Shown in pieces: positions 1 to 7,037 of a DNA stretch of 7,037 bases (position 1 is its first letter; each line of letters starts with the position of its first letter). Origin of the DNA: a virus. A program made the position numbers and the translations under genes. The stretch lies in the IMG/VR virus record IMGVR_UViG_3300045988_000192, positions 1 to 7,037 of that record. One strand, given 5' to 3'. The notes beneath the pieces were generated by a model. The model made no database searches. It saw only the letters and a list, made by a program, of their open reading frames with translations, and was not told the DNA's origin.

Positions 1-55
1 TACTGGTTACATTTCTTCTATTCAATCTACCGTTCAAAGCGAAAAACTTGCTGGT
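1..55. repeat. Terminal redundancy of the window. Positions 1-55 are identical to 6983-7037, which marks a circular (or concatemeric) replicon of 6982 nt.
   Basis: Direct reading: tactggttacatttcttctattcaatctaccgttcaaagcgaaaaacttgctggt occurs at both ends. Confidence 0.95.
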
Positions 56-2843: not shown

Positions 2844-2849
2844 TAATTT

Positions 2850-2885
2850 GGGCGCAAAGGTTAAATCCTCTGCGCCCTTTTTATT
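2850..2885 (+). terminator. Rho-independent terminator downstream of VP2.
   Basis: Stem GGGCGCAAAGG (2850-2860), loop TTAAAT, stem CCTCTGCGCCC (2867-2877) with one mismatch in 11 bp, followed by TTTTTATT. It is GC-rich in an otherwise AT-rich genome and lies 7 nt after the VP2 stop. Confidence 0.7.
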
Positions 2886-2946
2886 CTTATGAAATAATAA
2901 AAATTTATATTATACTCTTAATGTATCTGTTTTGTATTTGTGTTCG

Positions 2947-2982
2947 TGCGCATTTTATACGTACGTACACAATTTAATTAAA
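2947..2982. promoter_or_regulatory. Cluster of short perfect palindromes in the AT-rich intergenic DNA: TGCGCA (2947-2952), TACGTACGTA (2958-2967), TTTAATTAAA (2973-2982).
   Basis: Read directly. Three palindromes lie within 36 bp, downstream of the terminator. Candidate protein-binding or promoter-proximal sites; function unknown. Confidence 0.3.
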
Positions 2983-3115
2983 CAGATACCTTATTTTGGT
3001 TTGTCTGCTAGAAAACCTTAGCTTTGCGCGGAAAAGTTATAACATGCTACTAACTACCTTTTTATGAAAATTTTCTTTGAAAATTCCTACTCTCTTGTTT
3101 GAGGTAGGCAAAAGT

Positions 3116-3131
3116 GGGAATACATATTCCC
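3116..3131. promoter_or_regulatory. 16-bp near-perfect palindrome GGGAATAcaTATTCCC. Candidate operator for a dimeric DNA-binding protein.
   Basis: The 7-bp arms GGGAATA / TATTCCC are exact reverse complements separated by 2 nt. An adjacent imperfect palindrome CCTAC(N13)GTAGG lies at 3088-3110. Confidence 0.4.
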
Positions 3132-3157
3132 TAGTTACTGCACTTTTGTTCCTCTTG

Positions 3158-3187
3158 TCTGAGCGCAACATAATAGACGCTATGACA
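3158..3187 (+). repeat. 30-bp direct repeat, copy 1 (tctgagcgcaacataatagacgCtatgaca).
   Basis: 29/30 identical to 3344-3373. A degenerate similarity extends about 10 nt on each side. Confidence 0.85.
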
Positions 3188-3214
3188 ATACTTATGAAAA
3201 ACACTAGCCTTTTG

Positions 3215-3330
3215 GTTCTTTTGGGCAATGCCAAAAGAACACCCTCGGTAGAGCCCGCGGAGCGTAAACGCGCTCGGTTCCGCGCGCTAGGCGGAACTCA
3301 GGTTATAGGGCTGAAAGCCCTAATCGCCAG
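3215..3330 (+). other. GC-rich cluster of four consecutive stem-loops between the two direct repeats. Candidate ssDNA complementary-strand origin (ssi) or small structured RNA.
   Basis: Hairpin 1: gttcttttgg (3215-3224) pairs with ccaaaagaac (3231-3240). Hairpin 2: gagcg-taaacg-cgctc. Hairpin 3: gttccgc-gcgctag-gcggaac. Hairpin 4: tagggc-tgaaa-gcccta. Local GC is about 60% against about 38% genome-wide. No protein-coding potential is convincing here; the only open frame, the 87-aa track ORF 3077..3340, runs straight through the hairpins and repeats. Confidence 0.5.
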
Positions 3331-3343
3331 TTATCGTTAGTTC

Positions 3344-3373
3344 TCTGAGCGCAACATAATAGACGTTATGACA
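3344..3373 (+). repeat. 30-bp direct repeat, copy 2 (tctgagcgcaacataatagacgTtatgaca). It also forms the left arm of a long imperfect palindrome.
   Basis: See copy 1. The period between copies is 186 nt. Confidence 0.85.
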
Positions 3374-3432
3374 TTAGAAAATTCTGCGTAGGCAAATTTT
3401 CCATGTCGTAACGTTTATTATGTTGTGCGTTC
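3347..3432. repeat. 86-nt imperfect palindrome. The left arm 3347-3374 pairs with the right arm 3403-3432, and the spacer itself contains gaaaatt (3377-3383) paired with aattttc (3395-3401). It would fold into a hairpin of about 38 bp with an 11-nt loop on single-stranded DNA.
   Basis: Left arm: gagcgca-acataatagacgttatgacat. Reverse complement of right arm: gaacgcacaacataataaacgttacgacat. There are 3 mismatches and 1 indel over about 30 positions. The right arm is an inverted third copy of the 30-bp repeat. Confidence 0.75.
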
Positions 3433-3574
3433 GGCGAAGCAGAAAAAGGACAATAATTTTGTCGTTTGAATTGCGGCGAAGGCGCTTTTCAAACGTCAAA
3501 ATTATGTTCTTTTTCACATTTTCGTTGGTCGAACACTCAAGCAAGTGAAGCGTGCGAAGCACGAAAAATATGCA

Positions 3575-3598
3575 AAGTCGGGTTACTTTCCCCGACTT
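3575..3598 (+). terminator. Stem-loop aagtcggg-ttactttc-cccgactt followed by a pyrimidine-rich tract. A weak terminator or attenuator candidate about 80 nt upstream of the small membrane protein gene.
   Basis: 8-bp perfect stem and 8-nt loop. The downstream ctccttcctcttg is U/C-rich but not a clean U-run. Confidence 0.3.
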
Positions 3599-3677
3599 CT
3601 CCTTCCTCTTGTAATTATTTTCTTAAATAGTGTTAACAAATTTGGTGCTTTCAAGTTTTTTATTTTATCTTTGCACC

Positions 3678-3896
3678 ATGAAAAAGGATATTATCAAAAT
3701 TATCATCAAAGTTGCATTGTATGCACTTGGTTTGATAGCTGCTTATTTTGGTGTCTCAACCATGACATCATGCAGTACGTCCCACAATGTAGATGCCAGT
3801 GGTCGCACTACTATTGTTACAGTTGATACCACAATTGTTAAACATAACGGCATTGTCCGTTCTAAAAATTTTAAGCCTTATGGTGAAATTGAATAG
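3678..3896 (+). CDS. Small secreted or membrane-anchored protein, 72 aa. It has an N-terminal signal peptide and a possible lipoprotein (SPII) cleavage site MTS|C at Cys32, followed by a Thr/Val-rich 40-aa extracytoplasmic tail.
   Basis: ATG at 3678 is preferred over the track's GTG at 3630. The n-region MKKDIIKIIIK is followed by the hydrophobic core VALYALGLIAAYFGVSTM, then CSTSHNVD. The frame is open to TAG 3894-3896. A TAtcTTTG motif (Bacteroidetes -7-box-like) lies at 3666-3673, but only about 5 nt before the ATG. Confidence 0.55.
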   Translation: MKKDIIKIIIKVALYALGLIAAYFGVSTMTSCSTSHNVDASGRTTIVTVDTTIVKHNGIVRSKNFKPYGEIE

Positions 3897-4281: not shown

Positions 4282-5835
4282 ATGGCTTTATTCCCTCGGT
4301 GTAATAATCCTGTTCCTGTTGTTGGTCGACATGGTGTTACTCTTGTTGGCTGCCATTCGTGCATTCAATGTCGTGTTGCTGCTCAGGAATATCTTTGCAA
4401 GCTACTCGAGGTTGAAGCTTCTAAACATAAATATGTTGAATTCATCACAAACACTTATGATGATAAACACCTCCCTTATATAGATACTTCTTACCTATAT
4501 CCTTTTGGATATGCTTTGCGCATTCCTAATCGGGTAATTAAAAAATATAATCGTAGGACTAAAGAATTTTATTATGTAGAGGATAAAATTTCTAAGTCTT
4601 TTCGGCTTACCGATTTTGGGACTATTGACACAGCTTCTATGCTTCGTGATTACTATGCACGTATTGACAAATATTATAGTAGATTTCCGTTTCGGTCACG
4701 GGGCATACGTAATAATTCAGTTATCCCCATACTTTGGTATGATGATATTAGAAAATATATAGGTCGTTTAAGAAAATGGTTTTTAAAAGAATATGGTGAA
4801 AAAATACGCTACTACATTATTTGCGAGTACGGAACACAATCATTCCGTCCGCATTATCATATCCTACTATTCCACGATTCGCCTAGAGCGAGAGCGGATT
4901 TTAGGACTGTTCGGTCTTTGCCAATGTCCACAAGAGACAATCCGAGAGAAGTTTGTATTAAACTCGATTTGGCTCAATTATGGCTCTATGGTGATACGAC
5001 TACAAAGGTTACCGATGGAAATATGCAAGAATACGTGTCTAAGTATCTTACACAACATTCTGATTTCCCTCGAGTGCTTGACAAGTTTCCACAAAGGAGT
5101 TTTCACTCAATCTTATTGGGTTCAAAGAGCAAATCAGAGGTTAAAGAACTTTTTACCTCTAGAGACTTCGAAGCACTTACAACAGATTATGTTGTTAACA
5201 AAAAAGGTATCAGACGCCTTATTTCCATGTCAGATGCGTATTACTCTCAACTGTCCGTCAGATTTACAGGCTCTTCCTTTTTTGATGTTAACGCAACTTC
5301 TTCCTTATTTCGTTCGGTGGTATTCTGCGCCCGTCGATTCTTCTGCTCATCTGGAGAAATCTATGATGACGCAAGTGTAAGGGAGTTTTTGTTGTGGTTA
5401 CTTAACCCCGATACTTCTGCGTTATATAAACATATTTATCAGTTCCGTGCTGTCTATAGGTATGTAGAGGAATTTGCGAAGCTTATTTATAACAGTTCCG
5501 GTTCTGTAAACCCTTTAAAATCACTGCTTTATGCTGCACACCATCACTATTCGTTATCCTCCTGTTTAGGTTTGGATTCGTACACATGTTTAAAGTTACG
5601 TTTTGATTTCATTGCGTGGAAGGACTATCAAAATCTGGTTCAGTATTTCCAAGCTTTGGAAGATGATAAACTCTTTGCGTATGAAAATTATGCAAGTATG
5701 TCGCCTTTTACTGGTACTTATGATTTTAATATTTTAAAAACTCGCTCTATTTTTCAGTATCAAGTTCAACAGGCAAATATGTCTTATACTGAGAATATTA
5801 AACATAGGGCTATTGTAGATTCTTATAAAAATTAA
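4282..5835 (+). CDS. Replication initiation protein VP4 (phiX174 gene A-like HUH rolling-circle endonuclease), 517 aa.
   Basis: The N-terminal Cys-rich segment GCHSCIQCR resembles the conserved VP4 zinc-finger-like motif. Motif I-like EFITNTY. Motif II HUH: PHYHILLFH (nt 4847-4873). Motif III with two catalytic tyrosines EYVSKYLTQ (nt 5028-5054), compare phiX174 gpA YVAKYV. The stop TAA 5833-5835 lies 5 nt before the VP1 ATG. Confidence 0.92.
   Translation: MALFPRCNNPVPVVGRHGVTLVGCHSCIQCRVAAQEYLCKLLEVEASKHKYVEFITNTYDDKHLPYIDTSYLYPFGYALRIPNRVIKKYNRRTKEFYYVEDKISKSFRLTDFGTIDTASMLRDYYARIDKYYSRFPFRSRGIRNNSVIPILWYDDIRKYIGRLRKWFLKEYGEKIRYYIICEYGTQSFRPHYHILLFHDSPRARADFRTVRSLPMSTRDNPREVCIKLDLAQLWLYGDTTTKVTDGNMQEYVSKYLTQHSDFPRVLDKFPQRSFHSILLGSKSKSEVKELFTSRDFEALTTDYVVNKKGIRRLISMSDAYYSQLSVRFTGSSFFDVNATSSLFRSVVFCARRFFCSSGEIYDDASVREFLLWLLNPDTSALYKHIYQFRAVYRYVEEFAKLIYNSSGSVNPLKSLLYAAHHHYSLSSCLGLDSYTCLKLRFDFIAWKDYQNLVQYFQALEDDKLFAYENYASMSPFTGTYDFNILKTRSIFQYQVQQANMSYTENIKHRAIVDSYKN
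4793..5380 (+). CDS. Possible overprinted gene inside rep, in an alternative frame, 195 aa. Speculative.
   Basis: An uninterrupted 195-codon frame in AT-rich DNA, entirely within rep. Microviridae have precedent for overprinted genes (phiX174 B and K inside A; E inside D). There is no independent evidence of expression. Confidence 0.15.
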   Translation: MVKKYATTLFASTEHNHSVRIIISYYSTIRLERERILGLFGLCQCPQETIREKFVLNSIWLNYGSMVIRLQRLPMEICKNTCLSILHNILISLECLTSFHKGVFTQSYWVQRANQRLKNFLPLETSKHLQQIMLLTKKVSDALFPCQMRITLNCPSDLQALPFLMLTQLLPYFVRWYSAPVDSSAHLEKSMMTQV

Positions 5836-5840
5836 TTATT

Positions 5841-7037
5841 ATGGCTAATAAAGTTTTAGGTATGCATCGCCTTAAGAATAAGGTTAATCGCAATGCTTTT
5901 GATTTGTCTCATCGGCACATGTTTACCGCTCAAGTCGGTGAATTGCTGCCTGTATTTACTCAGTGGGTTAATCCTAATGAAACGTTTAAGATTGGATATA
6001 ACGGTAAAACTCGTACCGCTGCCCTTAACACTGATGCGTTTACTCGTATACGTGAAAATATCCAGTATTATTTCGTACCTTTTCAATCGCTTTGGAAGTA
6101 TTTTGAGCAACAGGTGAATAATATGACTAAGGGTGATGCTGGTCAGAATATTTCTAAGTTTGCAGATAGTTCGACAGAAGCTTCCAAGATTTCTACTTCT
6201 CTTCCCTATATTTCTTATGTTGATTTGGGGGATTGGCTTCATGTAATGTATCAACAATCTCTTGATGCTCTTGATGCTTATATGAAGAAGTATGAAAATC
6301 CCTCGGCTCGTTCTGCTGTAGATTTTAAAACATTTTGTGACCGTTCAAATGTATATTCGGATATTTTTGTTTGTGATGGTTACCGCCTTTGTCGTGCGGC
6401 TAAACTTCTTATGGCTTTAGGTTATGGCAATTTTTCGGTTATCATTCAGTTTGATATTTATTCTATGGCTGAACGTTTTGTTGCTGCTGGTAATCCTTGG
6501 GACGTTTCTGAATTTCAGGACTCTAGTTATGCTTTGGATTTTTCTTCATTTGAAACTCCTACTATTGTTAACAGTCCTAATTTGTCTATTTTGCCTTTAC
6601 TGGCTTATCATAAGATTTGTAATGACCATTACCGCAATGAAAAGTGGCAACCTTTCGAACCTTGGACTTGTAATATTGATTATTTGAGCCCTACGGATAA
6701 TATGAACGCAAAAACTTTTATCCAGTCTTCTACGTTTAATTCTGCTATGACTTCCTTAATTGATTTGGAGAATTCTAATTTACCTATTGATTATTTCACT
6801 TCTGTGTTGCCTCGTGCGCAATATGGTGACGAGTCTGCAGCTATGGTTGATATTCAGAGTCCTTCTAAACTGCTCTTTGATAATTCGGGTTCTACTCCTA
6901 AATCGGGTGCTCTTTTCGATGGTCCTTCTTTTGGTCCGAATGATACACTTATTAGGAGTAGCACTAATTTAACGCAGTCTGATACTGGTTACATTTCTTC
7001 TATTCAATCTACCGTTCAAAGCGAAAAACTTGCTGGT
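5841..7037 (+). CDS. Major capsid protein VP1 (phiX174 F-like), 5' portion. The gene has no stop inside the window and continues around the circular junction into 2..910.
   Basis: ATG at 5841 is the first in-frame start; the codon before the run is TAA at 5826-5828. The N-terminus MANKVLGMHRLKNKVNRNAFDLSHRHMFTAQVGELLPV is the typical Microviridae VP1 start. The frame stays open to 7037. The 6983-7037 = 1-55 identity puts the reading frame in register with the track's ORF 68..910, giving about 2052 nt (683 aa). Missing from the ORF track only because no stop falls inside the window. Confidence 0.9.
   Translation, partial: MANKVLGMHRLKNKVNRNAFDLSHRHMFTAQVGELLPVFTQWVNPNETFKIGYNGKTRTAALNTDAFTRIRENIQYYFVPFQSLWKYFEQQVNNMTKGDAGQNISKFADSSTEASKISTSLPYISYVDLGDWLHVMYQQSLDALDAYMKKYENPSARSAVDFKTFCDRSNVYSDIFVCDGYRLCRAAKLLMALGYGNFSVIIQFDIYSMAERFVAAGNPWDVSEFQDSSYALDFSSFETPTIVNSPNLSILPLLAYHKICNDHYRNEKWQPFEPWTCNIDYLSPTDNMNAKTFIQSSTFNSAMTSLIDLENSNLPIDYFTSVLPRAQYGDESAAMVDIQSPSKLLFDNSGSTPKSGALFDGPSFGPNDTLIRSSTNLTQSDTGYISSIQSTVQSEKLAG

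What the first reader, a model, noticed from the sequence alone, without database searches (positions are those of the whole stretch)
3215..3330. GC-rich island of four back-to-back hairpins (about 60% GC in a roughly 38% GC genome). Candidate complementary-strand origin or small structured RNA.
ssDNA phages need a structured site on the packaged strand for host primase, RNA polymerase or PriA to start (-) strand synthesis (G4 oric, M13 ori and the phiX174 PAS are all hairpin clusters). This is the only strongly structured GC-rich block in the genome, and it lies in an intergenic region immediately upstream of the big palindrome. For Microviridae outside the phiX group the (-) origin is essentially undefined, so this is a concrete candidate. 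Alternatively it could be transcribed as a small RNA. The 8-bp stem-loop at 3575-3598 downstream could act as its terminator.
Basis: partly seen in the sequence, partly recalled or inferred. Interest (0 to 1): 0.6.

Follow-up and report, generated by a model that had tools for sequence, protein, structure and literature searches.

The report
Borrowed hairpin cassette in a microvirus
The GC-rich hairpin cluster is real and belongs to a conserved family of folded non-coding DNA shared by many gut microviruses, but this phage picked it up recently from an unrelated microvirus and none of its 46 close relatives examined carries this insert (one has a different variant elsewhere), so it is at most a spare, not the required, start site for second-strand synthesis.

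Summary
Observation confirmed. Window 3215-3330 is 58.6% GC against 37.8% for the genome. It folds into P1, two mini-hairpins, P3 and P4.

A covariance model finds the element in over 100 gut microvirus loci. In that alignment 98% of cells are paired and 18 of 31 pairs carry compensatory changes. It lies on the gene (packaged) strand in 111 of 111 loci.

It matches no Rfam family, tRNA or conserved ORF, and has no conserved upstream promoter.

Context changes the reading. The island sits in a 454-nt insertion (3154-3607; 10-nt repeat TTCCTCTTGT at both ends). That insertion is absent from about 36 close relatives that cover the site, and no island was found in 45 searched. One further relative, L178, carries a different island variant at another junction.

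Positions 3186-3612 are 99% identical to microviruses whose Rep and capsid proteins, measured on sister carriers, are only about 25-50% identical. The window copy lacks the family's usual 5' part.

On the plus strand only, 44% of triloop hairpins have G-N-A loops, against 3-6% in controls. These loops are the DNA mini-hairpin type known at G4, St-1 and alpha3 priming sites.

Best reading: a mobile, Rep-independent ssDNA element, most likely a complementary-strand initiation cassette like a plasmid sso. It is redundant here. The function is inferred, not shown.

The parts
3154..3607 (+). 454-nt insertion relative to all close relatives that cover the site. It could equally be placed at 3159-3612, because the 10-nt repeat makes the exact boundary ambiguous.
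   Evidence: Alignments to L001, L002 and about 33 IMG/VR relatives jump from 3151-3158 straight to 3603-3612. L178 also lacks it.
3149..3158 (+). Left copy of the direct repeat TTCCTCTTGT. This is the recipient's own motif at the empty site.
   Evidence: D10. Relatives read GTTCCTCTGTAAC or GTTCCTTGTAAC at the empty site.
3603..3612 (+). Right copy of TTCCTCTTGT. It is a hybrid of the donor's end motif CTCC(T/C)CCTCTTGT and the recipient's motif, and homology to all donors ends here.
3159..3185 (+). 27-nt partial duplicate of 3345-3371, the left arm of the big palindrome. It replaces the family's normal 5' flank.
   Evidence: D1, 92% identical. Donor homology starts only at 3185/3186.
3186..3332 (+). 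The island: the family unit matched end to end by covariance model R1.
   Evidence: 181 bits, E = 3e-48. Covariation.
3194..3209 (+). Invariant 5' motif ATGAAAAACACTAGCC. The ORF that starts here is not conserved.
   Evidence: Across carriers the ORF is 15-117 aa long and the 3' motif falls in all three frames.
3215..3240 (+). P1 hairpin: 10-bp stem with the invariant loop GCAATG.
   Evidence: I18. 4 of 7 modelled pairs covary.
3244..3253 (+). Mini-hairpin CTC-GGTA-GAG, with a G-N-N-A loop.
   Evidence: Swaps to GTC-GGCA-GAC and GCC-GGTA-GGC in relatives.
3256..3264 (+). Mini-hairpin CGC-GGA-GCG, with a G-N-A triloop closed by C-G.
   Evidence: Middle pair is G-C in 6 sequences and A-U in 6.
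3276..3298 (+). P3 hairpin: 8 bp, with a loop holding C-GCTA-G.
   Evidence: 6 of 8 pairs covary.
3306..3322 (+). P4 hairpin TAGGGCT-GAA-AGCCCTA, inside the conserved flanks GGTTATAGGG and CCCTAATCGCC.
   Evidence: 6 of 7 pairs covary. Stem length and loop vary across the family.
3349..3428 (+). Big palindrome in the same mobile block. Its arms resemble dif sites (GCGCAACATAA-TAGACG-TTATGAC).
   Evidence: I1. The resemblance to dif was judged by eye. The palindrome is intact inside prophages.
3444..3514 (+). Second palindrome in the same block, with apex C-GAA-G.
   Evidence: (I2).
3519..3567 (+). Third hairpin region, containing GTGC-GAA-GCAC at 3550-3560.
   Evidence: (I7).
3575..3598 (+). 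Terminal hairpin of the block. Some relatives have it directly after the island.
   Evidence: L019 and L032. No + strand T-run.

Best explanation
What it is (well supported). The island is one module of a 427-nt non-coding block, 3186-3612. The block is native to temperate gut microviruses that integrate into chromosomes, probably of Prevotella-like Bacteroidales. It entered this phage lineage recently by recombination at short microhomologies.

The module is a cluster of stable hairpins that is selected on the packaged (+) strand. It is always in the same orientation. It is exchanged among phages whose Rep proteins are unrelated in sequence, so it must work with host factors rather than with a particular Rep.

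How it most likely works (inferred, not shown). On the incoming single-stranded genome, the GC-rich stems capped by d(GNA)/d(GNNA) mini-hairpin loops stay folded and free of SSB. They present a landmark where a host enzyme (primase, RNA polymerase or PriA primosome) lays down the primer for the complementary strand. This is the role played by the oric of G4, St-1 and alpha3 and by the sso cassettes of rolling-circle plasmids.

In this genome the copy is an extra, 5'-truncated one. The lineage does not need it.
For: Insertion and transfer.
- The insertion is absent from about 36 close relatives that cover the site, and no island was found in the 45 searched with the model.
- 3186-3612 is 98.6-99.1% identical to L134, L122 and L147, with no other megablast match between those genomes and the window.
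- Carriers share 86-97% identical blocks while their Rep is 22-44% and their capsid 28-65% identical.
- The junctions show microhomology.

Structure.
- 98% of cells are paired and 18 of 31 pairs have compensatory changes. Controls with the 3' partner slid by 1-3 columns give 36-58% paired.
- The + strand folds significantly better than shuffles; the - strand does not.

Strand specificity.
- 111 of 111 loci have the island on the gene strand.

DNA-level signature.
- 44% of triloop hairpins in 96 distinct blocks are G-N-A (GAA, GCA, GTA, mostly closed by C-G). The reverse complement gives 3% and coding controls 5-6%.
- 103 of 114 carriers have a CC/GC-GNNA-GG/GC mini-hairpin just upstream.
- Such mini-hairpins are far more stable as DNA than as RNA, bind SSB poorly, and occur at the G4, St-1 and alpha3 priming sites and in RSF1010 ssiA (PMC13037366).

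Not RNA or protein by the available tests.
- No Rfam match, no tRNA, ORF not conserved, no conserved upstream promoter.
- In native context it follows a terminator-like hairpin.

Not a host element.
- One hit in 185,579 species genomes, and that contig is itself microvirus-like.
Against: - No experiment supports the function, and there is no sequence similarity to any characterised origin.
- Covariation cannot tell ssDNA from RNA of the same sense. In this window a Bacteroidetes-type promoter match at 2995-3026 could transcribe through the island.
- The proposed closing helix P0 has two G-T pairs and no compensatory change. It appears only with RNA parameters.
- The window copy lacks the upstream mini-hairpin present in 90% of carriers.
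- The lineage manages without the element.
- The family co-occurs with a dif-like attachment site (87 of 114 loci), so a role in lysogeny is equally compatible with its distribution.
- The loci are related sequences, so the counts are not independent events.
Confidence: 0.4

Rival explanations
1. The island is a structured RNA. It would be either a small regulatory RNA or a structured leader or 3' UTR element of phage transcripts, acting on phage or host gene expression, for example in control of lysogeny.
For: - Same sense as all genes, with strong covariation.
- The RNA minimum-free-energy fold includes a multiloop closed by conserved TAGCC/GGTTA with G-U pairs.
- The loop GCAATG and the 5' motif are invariant and could be recognition sites.
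- In this window a TTTG-N20-TAGCTTTG promoter match lies 160 nt upstream.
Against: - No Rfam family matches in the window or in 9 other carriers.
- No promoter sits at a conserved position upstream across 43 carriers.
- The native copy follows a terminator-like hairpin.
- No + strand terminator follows the island.
- No conserved complementarity of the invariant loops to phage transcripts.
- The loops are GNA triloops and GNNA tetraloops, often with a pyrimidine at position 3. That is the DNA mini-hairpin pattern, not the RNA GNRA pattern.
Confidence: 0.2
2. The island is part of the integration and lysogeny apparatus. It would be a folded ssDNA element that works with the neighbouring dif-like palindrome and the downstream attachment site, for example by guiding host XerC/D or by delaying second-strand synthesis so that the single strand can integrate.
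For: - It travels in one block with an inverted pair of dif-like sites.
- 96 of 114 carriers have the CACGTG palindrome downstream, and 87 also have a dif-like site.
- Prophages in long contigs end about 550-600 nt downstream of the island at such a site.
- Bacteroidetes microviruses were proposed to use XerC/D, some with an extra inverted dif-like site (PMC3091885).
Against: - The palindrome is intact inside prophages, so it is not the crossover point there.
- Some carriers have the island without the palindromes: L019, L032 and L148.
- The window lineage has no attachment site of this type, yet keeps the block 99% intact.
- Xer accessory sequences act as duplex DNA and would not need hairpin covariation.
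Confidence: 0.15
3. The island is a selfish or passive passenger. It would be a hairpin-rich mobile non-coding element (MITE-, REP- or PATE-like) that spreads among microviruses by recombination or by Rep or transposase action, without benefit to the phage.
For: - Recent horizontal arrival here.
- A second, different variant in the same lineage, L178.
- Duplicated copies in L007, L104 and L123.
- The insertion is flanked by a 10-nt direct repeat.
Against: - No terminal inverted repeats and no matching subterminal hairpins at both ends.
- The repeat is the donor's own conserved end motif plus recipient microhomology, not a target duplication.
- The position is always the VP2-to-Rep non-coding region and the orientation is always the same.
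- Stems are maintained by compensatory change across very divergent phages with tight genome-size limits.
Confidence: 0.1
4. The island is the viral-strand (+) origin, or a Rep-binding or packaging site.
For: - Repeated GTTAT-type units flank P4: GGTTATAGGG, and AGTTATCGTT repeated up to three times in L012 and L021. These are reminiscent of iterons.
- The block ends at a conserved CTCTTGT motif that recalls the phiX174 nick sequence. That similarity is recalled from memory and was not tested.
Against: - Near-identical islands serve phages whose Rep is 22-44% identical.
- 45 relatives with a Rep 84-87% identical to this phage's (measured on L001 and L002) have no island.
- An essential (+) origin cannot be absent.
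Confidence: 0.05

Closest known systems
Primase-dependent complementary-strand origins (oric) of microviruses G4, St-1 and alpha3
   Same: - Non-coding site on the packaged strand of a microvirus.
- A cluster of stable hairpins.
- d(GCGNNAGC)/d(GNA)-type mini-hairpins, which are poor SSB substrates (PMC13037366). The family's upstream mini-hairpin even includes GCGTTAGC, the St-1/alpha3 sequence.
   Different: - No sequence similarity. BLAST against 50,697 phage records returned only gut microviruses.
- Different position in the genome (VP2-to-Rep region), and a different host phylum.
- It has an invariant 5' motif and an invariant loop.
- It is exchanged between distant phages and is missing from close relatives.
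- Priming has never been tested.
Single-strand origins (ssoA, ssoU, ssoT, ssoW) of rolling-circle plasmids
   Same: They are orientation-specific, non-coding and highly folded. They depend on host enzymes, are not strictly essential, and are distributed as interchangeable cassettes independent of the Rep type. This description of sso elements comes from established knowledge, not from a tool.
   Different: - The ssoA hallmark CS-6 (TAGCGT/A) is not visible in the island when the sequence is read by eye. The RSB motif was not examined.
- No hit in 72,556 plasmids, apart from one 6.3-kb record that looks like a microvirus.
- The carrier is a phage, not a plasmid.
phiX174 primosome assembly site and the M13/fd minus-strand origin
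   Same: Hairpin landmarks on an SSB-coated viral strand that recruit PriA or RNA polymerase.
   Different: - No similarity in sequence.
- No Bacteroidetes -33/-7 promoter mimic could be recognised in the stems (and reading by eye).
- PriA dependence cannot be tested here.
Conserved intergenic hairpins of reekeekee- and roodoodoo-microviruses (PMC9865509)
   Same: Conserved intergenic hairpins with compensatory substitutions in uncultured microviruses. They were proposed, without proof, as minus-strand initiation sites.
   Different: - Those are one or two simple hairpins inherited vertically within a clade.
- This is a multi-hairpin module with invariant motifs, and it moves between clades.
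CTXphi folded attP (inverted dif-like sites). This concerns the neighbouring palindrome, not the island itself.
   Same: An inverted pair of dif-like sites that can fold on the single strand. Bacteroidetes microviruses are thought to use XerC/D (PMC3091885).
   Different: In the prophages seen here the crossover lies at another dif-like site further downstream, and the palindrome is intact.

Membership tests
G4-type complementary-strand origin / single-strand initiation (ssi) signal | Lies on the packaged strand in non-coding DNA and is orientation-specific. | tested here: met
   Located between the VP2-like gene and the next promoter. 111 of 111 loci are on the gene strand.
G4-type complementary-strand origin / single-strand initiation (ssi) signal | A cluster of stable hairpins, maintained by selection. 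| tested here: met
   z = -3.4 as DNA. 18 of 31 pairs have compensatory change.
G4-type complementary-strand origin / single-strand initiation (ssi) signal | DNA mini-hairpin (GCGNNAGC or GNA loop) at or near the priming site. | tested here: inconclusive
   The loops are present and strand-specifically enriched. The priming site is unknown, and the window copy lacks the upstream GNNA mini-hairpin.
G4-type complementary-strand origin / single-strand initiation (ssi) signal | Sequence homology to the oric of G4, St-1 or alpha3. | tested here: not met
   BLAST against the phage collection returned only uncultured gut microviruses.
G4-type complementary-strand origin / single-strand initiation (ssi) signal | Supports primer synthesis or rescues an ori-deleted ssDNA replicon. 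| not testable with these tools
   Needs an ssi assay or in vitro priming.
Rolling-circle plasmid sso (ssoA type) | Cassette-like distribution, independent of the Rep type. | tested here: met
   Blocks are 86-97% identical between phages whose Rep is 22-44% identical.
Rolling-circle plasmid sso (ssoA type) | Conserved RSB and CS-6 (TAGCGT/A) motifs. | tested here: not met
   No TAGCGT/A in 3186-3332 on reading the sequence. RSB was not examined. No plasmid homologues.
Any described RNA family (Rfam 15), tRNA or tmRNA | Match to a curated covariance model, or an ARAGORN call. | tested here: not met
   Nothing over the island at E <= 10 in the window or E <= 1 in 9 other carriers. No tRNA or tmRNA.
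Small protein gene | Reading frame and length conserved among homologues. | tested here: not met
   ORFs run 15-117 aa. P1 is read in all three frames and stops are scattered. No Pfam hit.
Transposable element (MITE or IS200/IS605-derived) | Terminal inverted repeats or matching subterminal hairpins, with a target-site signature. | tested here: not met
   No such ends. The flanking repeat is explained by donor/recipient microhomology.
Viral-strand origin or Rep binding site | Co-varies with Rep and is present in every genome with that Rep. | tested here: not met

The most novel reading that the evidence does not exclude
Gut microviruses of Bacteroidales would share a horizontally exchanged, host-enzyme-dependent complementary-strand origin cassette built from DNA mini-hairpins. 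This would be the first defined minus-strand origin family outside the phiX/G4 group, and a phage counterpart of plasmid sso cassettes. It would be captured repeatedly by unrelated lineages, including this one.
Probability: 0.35. Interest if true: 0.7.

Novelty: new member of a known kind. Interest (0 to 1): 0.5.

Why it matters
How microviruses outside the phiX/G4 group start their second strand is unknown. These phages are among the most abundant viruses of the human gut.

This work turns one odd GC-rich patch into a family of more than 100 members, with a consensus structure, invariant motifs and natural presence/absence variants. Those variants include a natural insertion, a 5'-truncated copy, and copies with and without the adjacent palindromes. 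This is the material needed for a clean ssi or priming test.

It also shows that the non-coding region of these tiny genomes is a mosaic of modules exchanged between very distant phages.

For the window itself the result is sobering. The element is a recent import, and the lineage does not need it.

Tried and rejected
- **Known RNAs.** An Rfam scan of the window gave only chance microRNA-like hits on the palindromes. A scan of 9 other carriers gave nothing over the island. ARAGORN found no tRNA or tmRNA.
- **Protein-coding reading of the ATG at 3194.** Rejected: frame and length are not conserved and there is no Pfam hit.
- **Host origin.** A scan of 185,579 species genomes gave one hit, and that contig is itself microvirus-like. 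The plasmid database gave one 6.3-kb "Pseudomonas plasmid" that matches only the 5' part and is probably a microvirus.
- **Conserved Bacteroidetes promoter upstream of the island.** Not found.
- **sRNA target search.** The invariant loops show no conserved complementarity within carrier genomes.
- **Transposon reading.** The 10-nt flanking repeat is explained by microhomology.
- **Tiny Xer-integrated element.** I considered that the 36-nt direct repeat (3155-3190 / 3341-3376) marks such an element. Rejected: donors have only the downstream copy, and family homology continues upstream of the island.
- **Big palindrome as the prophage crossover site.** Rejected: it is intact in the prophages.
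- **L178 as a genome with only the island in its intergenic region.** I hoped to use it this way, but the contig is not demonstrably circular and may be broken there.
- **Covariation test of the lineage's own hairpin at 2923-2989.** Not possible: it is almost invariant.

Full report
**1. The genome.**
The window is a complete circular microvirus. Its two ends repeat 55 nt, so the true length is 6982 nt. All recognisable genes are on the + strand:
- The capsid gene runs across the ends.
- A 151-aa ORF lies at 922-1377.
- A VP2-like gene lies at 1386-2843.
- Rep lies at 4282-5835.

By the rule for Microviridae, the + strand is the packaged strand. The stretch 2844-3680 is non-coding.

**2. The observation.**
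3215-3330 is 58.6% GC against 37.8% for the genome, and it contains the GC-richest 116-nt window. The + strand folds better than all 200 shuffles, both as RNA (z = -3.2) and as DNA (z = -3.4). The - strand does not (z = -1.9).

The hairpins are P1 (3215-3240), two 3-bp mini-hairpins (3244-3253 and 3256-3264), P3 (3276-3298) and P4 (3306-3322).

It is not the most structured part of the genome. The palindromes just downstream and the region 2851-3000 score higher.

**3. It is a family with covariation.**
BLAST against phage records hit the island in otherwise unrelated gut microviruses. Two conserved motifs were used as search patterns:
- 5' motif: ATGAAAAACACTAGCC, followed by a hairpin with loop GGGCAATGCC.
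- 3' motif: GGTTATAGGG-hairpin-CCCTAATYGCC.

These patterns retrieved 37 IMG/VR contigs and 91 metagenome contigs. A covariance model built from 16 sequences matched 103 sites in 100 loci.

On that alignment (90 distinct rows) 98% of cells form standard pairs and 18 of 31 pairs show changes on both sides. Sliding the 3' partner by 1-3 columns drops pairing to 36-58%. One caveat: this alignment was fitted to the model. However, RNAalifold on an independent MAFFT alignment gave the same helices, with 8 compensatory pairs.

The middle of the element is modular. P1 and the 5' motif are nearly constant, while the following GC-rich hairpins are swapped among several types.

The overlapping mini-hairpin CGC-GGA-GCG has a true G-C to A-U swap.

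**4. What it is not.**
- It is not a described RNA.
- It is not a gene. The ORF from the conserved ATG is 15-117 aa long, P1 is read in all three frames, and the 3' motif falls in all three frames.
- It is not a host sequence. One hit was found in 185,579 species genomes, and that contig is microvirus-like.
- It is not plasmid-borne.

**5. In this genome it is a recent import.**
The two closest GenBank genomes align up to 3153 and resume at 3603 or 3608. A search with the VP2-like protein gave 43 relatives, 84-95% identical. Every one that covers the site makes the same jump. The covariance model finds no island in any of 45 relatives searched.

The missing 454 nt are bounded by the 10-nt repeat TTCCTCTTGT. 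Within them, 3186-3612 is 98.6-99.1% identical to L134, L122, L168 and L147, and 81-97% identical to many others. Homology always stops exactly at 3185/3186 and at 3612. For the carriers whose Rep and capsid were compared (L009, L011, L015, L036 and others), those proteins are only about 25-50% identical to the window's. L134, L122 and L147 share no other megablast-level similarity with the window.

Among carriers generally, blocks are 86-97% identical where Rep is 22-44% identical.

The junctions show microhomology:
- The recipient reads GTTCCTCTTGT and the donor reads CTCCCTCTTGT.
- The donor also reads GTTCTCTGAGCGC.

The first 27 nt of the insert (3159-3185) duplicate 3345-3371. This explains the 36-nt direct repeat flanking the island.

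As a result, the window copy lacks the family's normal 5' flank. That flank includes a CC/GC-GNNA-GG/GC mini-hairpin present in 103 of 114 carriers.

One more lineage member, L178, carries a different island variant (79% identical) at a different junction. Capture has therefore happened at least twice.

**6. Native context.**
In donors the order of elements is:
1. the VP2-like gene,
2. a terminator-like hairpin,
3. an upstream hairpin,
4. the mini-hairpin,
5. the island,
6. the palindromes (optional),
7. the terminal hairpin,
8. the CTCTTGT motif,
9. a Y-shaped stem,
10. a TTTCACGTGAAA palindrome,
11. a dif-like site,
12. a promoter, then small ORFs and Rep.

Several hits lie inside long contigs, where the phage part is followed by bacterial genes: AAA-ATPase/PDDEXK_9, McrBC and restriction-modification genes. 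One of these host proteins is 80% identical to a protein named from an uncultured Prevotella. The family is therefore native to temperate microviruses, of the kind described by Krupovic and Forterre (PMC3091885).

Phage-to-host homology ends at the downstream dif-like site, not in the big palindrome. The window has neither that site nor the CACGTG palindrome.

**7. RNA or DNA?**
Covariation cannot decide this, because mRNA and the packaged strand have the same sense. Three observations lean towards DNA.
- No Bacteroidetes-type promoter (TTTG-N19-21-TAnnTTTG) sits at a conserved place upstream. Such matches do recur downstream, before the small ORFs. The native copy also follows a terminator-like hairpin.
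- In 96 distinct blocks, 44% of triloop hairpins with stems of 4 bp or more have G-N-A loops on the + strand (C-GAA-G, T-GAA-A, C-GCA-G, C-GTA-G). The reverse complement gives 3% and coding controls give 5-6%. The tetraloops are G-N-N-A, often with a pyrimidine at position 3, which does not fit the RNA GNRA rule.
- The Hirao review reports that d(GCGNAGC) and d(GCGNNAGC) mini-hairpins are extraordinarily stable as DNA and much less so as RNA. It also reports that they bind SSB poorly and occur where primase starts on G4, St-1 and alpha3 ssDNA, in RSF1010 ssiA and in N4 hairpin promoters (PMC13037366).

Against this, the window has a promoter match at 2995-3026 that could read through the island. 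In addition, the closing helix P0 is predicted only with RNA parameters.

**8. Mechanism.**
The features are strand specificity (111 of 111 loci), independence from the Rep type, non-coding position, stable SSB-resistant hairpins, and dispensability with replacement by other modules. These are the features of plasmid single-strand origins and of phage ssi signals.

I therefore take a complementary-strand initiation cassette as the most likely function, at roughly 35-40%. A structured RNA, a role in Xer-mediated lysogeny, and a selfish passenger remain open. A Rep-specific origin is nearly excluded.

For this lineage, the near-invariant hairpin at 2923-2989 (ssDNA z = -5.6; present in all relatives that cover it) is the better candidate for whatever cis function is essential.

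**9.
The proposed terminator at 3575-3598 has no T-run on the + strand. It is the conserved terminal hairpin of the block.

No published description of this element was found in the paper searches. The nearest is the report of conserved intergenic hairpins in other microvirus clades (PMC9865509).

Noticed in passing
window 1-55 and 6983-7037: The window's ends are an exact 55-nt direct repeat. The genome is therefore circular and really 6982 nt long. This also explains the apparent frame break in the capsid gene at the junction.
   Followed up: partly
window 2884/2885: Every close relative carries an extra 100-580 nt here, just after the VP2 terminator-like hairpin; the window has none. In PV067919.1 (L001 4024-4281) the insert holds an 85-aa ORF on the opposite strand. 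This looks like a hot spot for variable cargo.
   Followed up: partly
window 2923-2989: A long imperfect hairpin (ssDNA z = -5.6) that is almost invariant in the 29 close relatives retrieved (27 distinct sequences). It is the best-conserved non-coding element of this lineage, and a better candidate for an essential cis site than the island.
   Followed up: partly
window 3092-3100, 3152-3158, 3606-3612: The motif C(T)CTTGT occurs three times. In donors it ends the mobile block and precedes a Y-shaped stem (GCAAAAGTG ... CACTTTTGT). It recalls the phiX174 nick sequence CAACTTG (recalled from memory), so it might be the Rep nick site. That would explain why recombination junctions fall here.
   Followed up: no
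window 3155-3190, 3341-3376, 3404-3428: Three copies (two direct, one inverted) of a dif-like sequence, GCGCAACATAA-TAGACG-TTATGAC. The first copy could pair with the right arm of the big palindrome and loop out the island, giving an alternative fold.
   Followed up: partly
window 2995-3026 and 3641-3672: Two full matches to the Bacteroidetes promoter consensus TTTG-N19-21-TAnnTTTG. The second lies just before the ORF starting at 3679. This fits a Bacteroidales host.
   Followed up: partly
L162 about 1170-1222; L170 about 2080-2108: In prophages, phage-to-host homology ends at a dif-like site, (T)TCGTTAYCATAA-N6-TTAGAATTAAA, next to a TTTCACGTGAAA palindrome. Many 6.6-6.7-kb contigs (L009, L017, L112, L152) break at this very point. 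This is probably the real attachment site.
   Followed up: partly
L015, L011, L042 (IMG/VR contigs of 7.2-7.9 kb): These contigs, labelled viral, carry the start of a bacterial AAA-ATPase/PDDEXK_9 gene beyond the attachment site. They are therefore prophage fragments with host flank, not free genomes.
   Followed up: partly
L178 (6490 nt, metagenome contig OCIU01004638.1): A member of the window's lineage (about 83% identical) that carries a different, shorter island variant directly before the promoter, with none of the window's 2844-3612 backbone downstream of it. The contig may be incomplete at this point.
   Followed up: partly
L007 1-135 and 6363-6441; L104 747-1122; L123 243-406 and 6624-6713: Some carriers have the 5' part of the element, or the whole element, in two copies. 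In L007 this is a tandem duplication of about 77 nt.
   Followed up: no
NZ_CP050055.1 (6313-bp 'Pseudomonas aeruginosa plasmid') 4919-4970; L045 (Lachnospiraceae MAG contig): Both records contain the element, and L045 has a full microvirus gene set. They are probably microvirus genomes filed under the wrong organism.
   Followed up: no
L027 (11,666 nt): This contig carries two different capsid and Rep sets in series, with the island between them. It is either a co-integrate of two microviruses or an assembly chimera.
   Followed up: no
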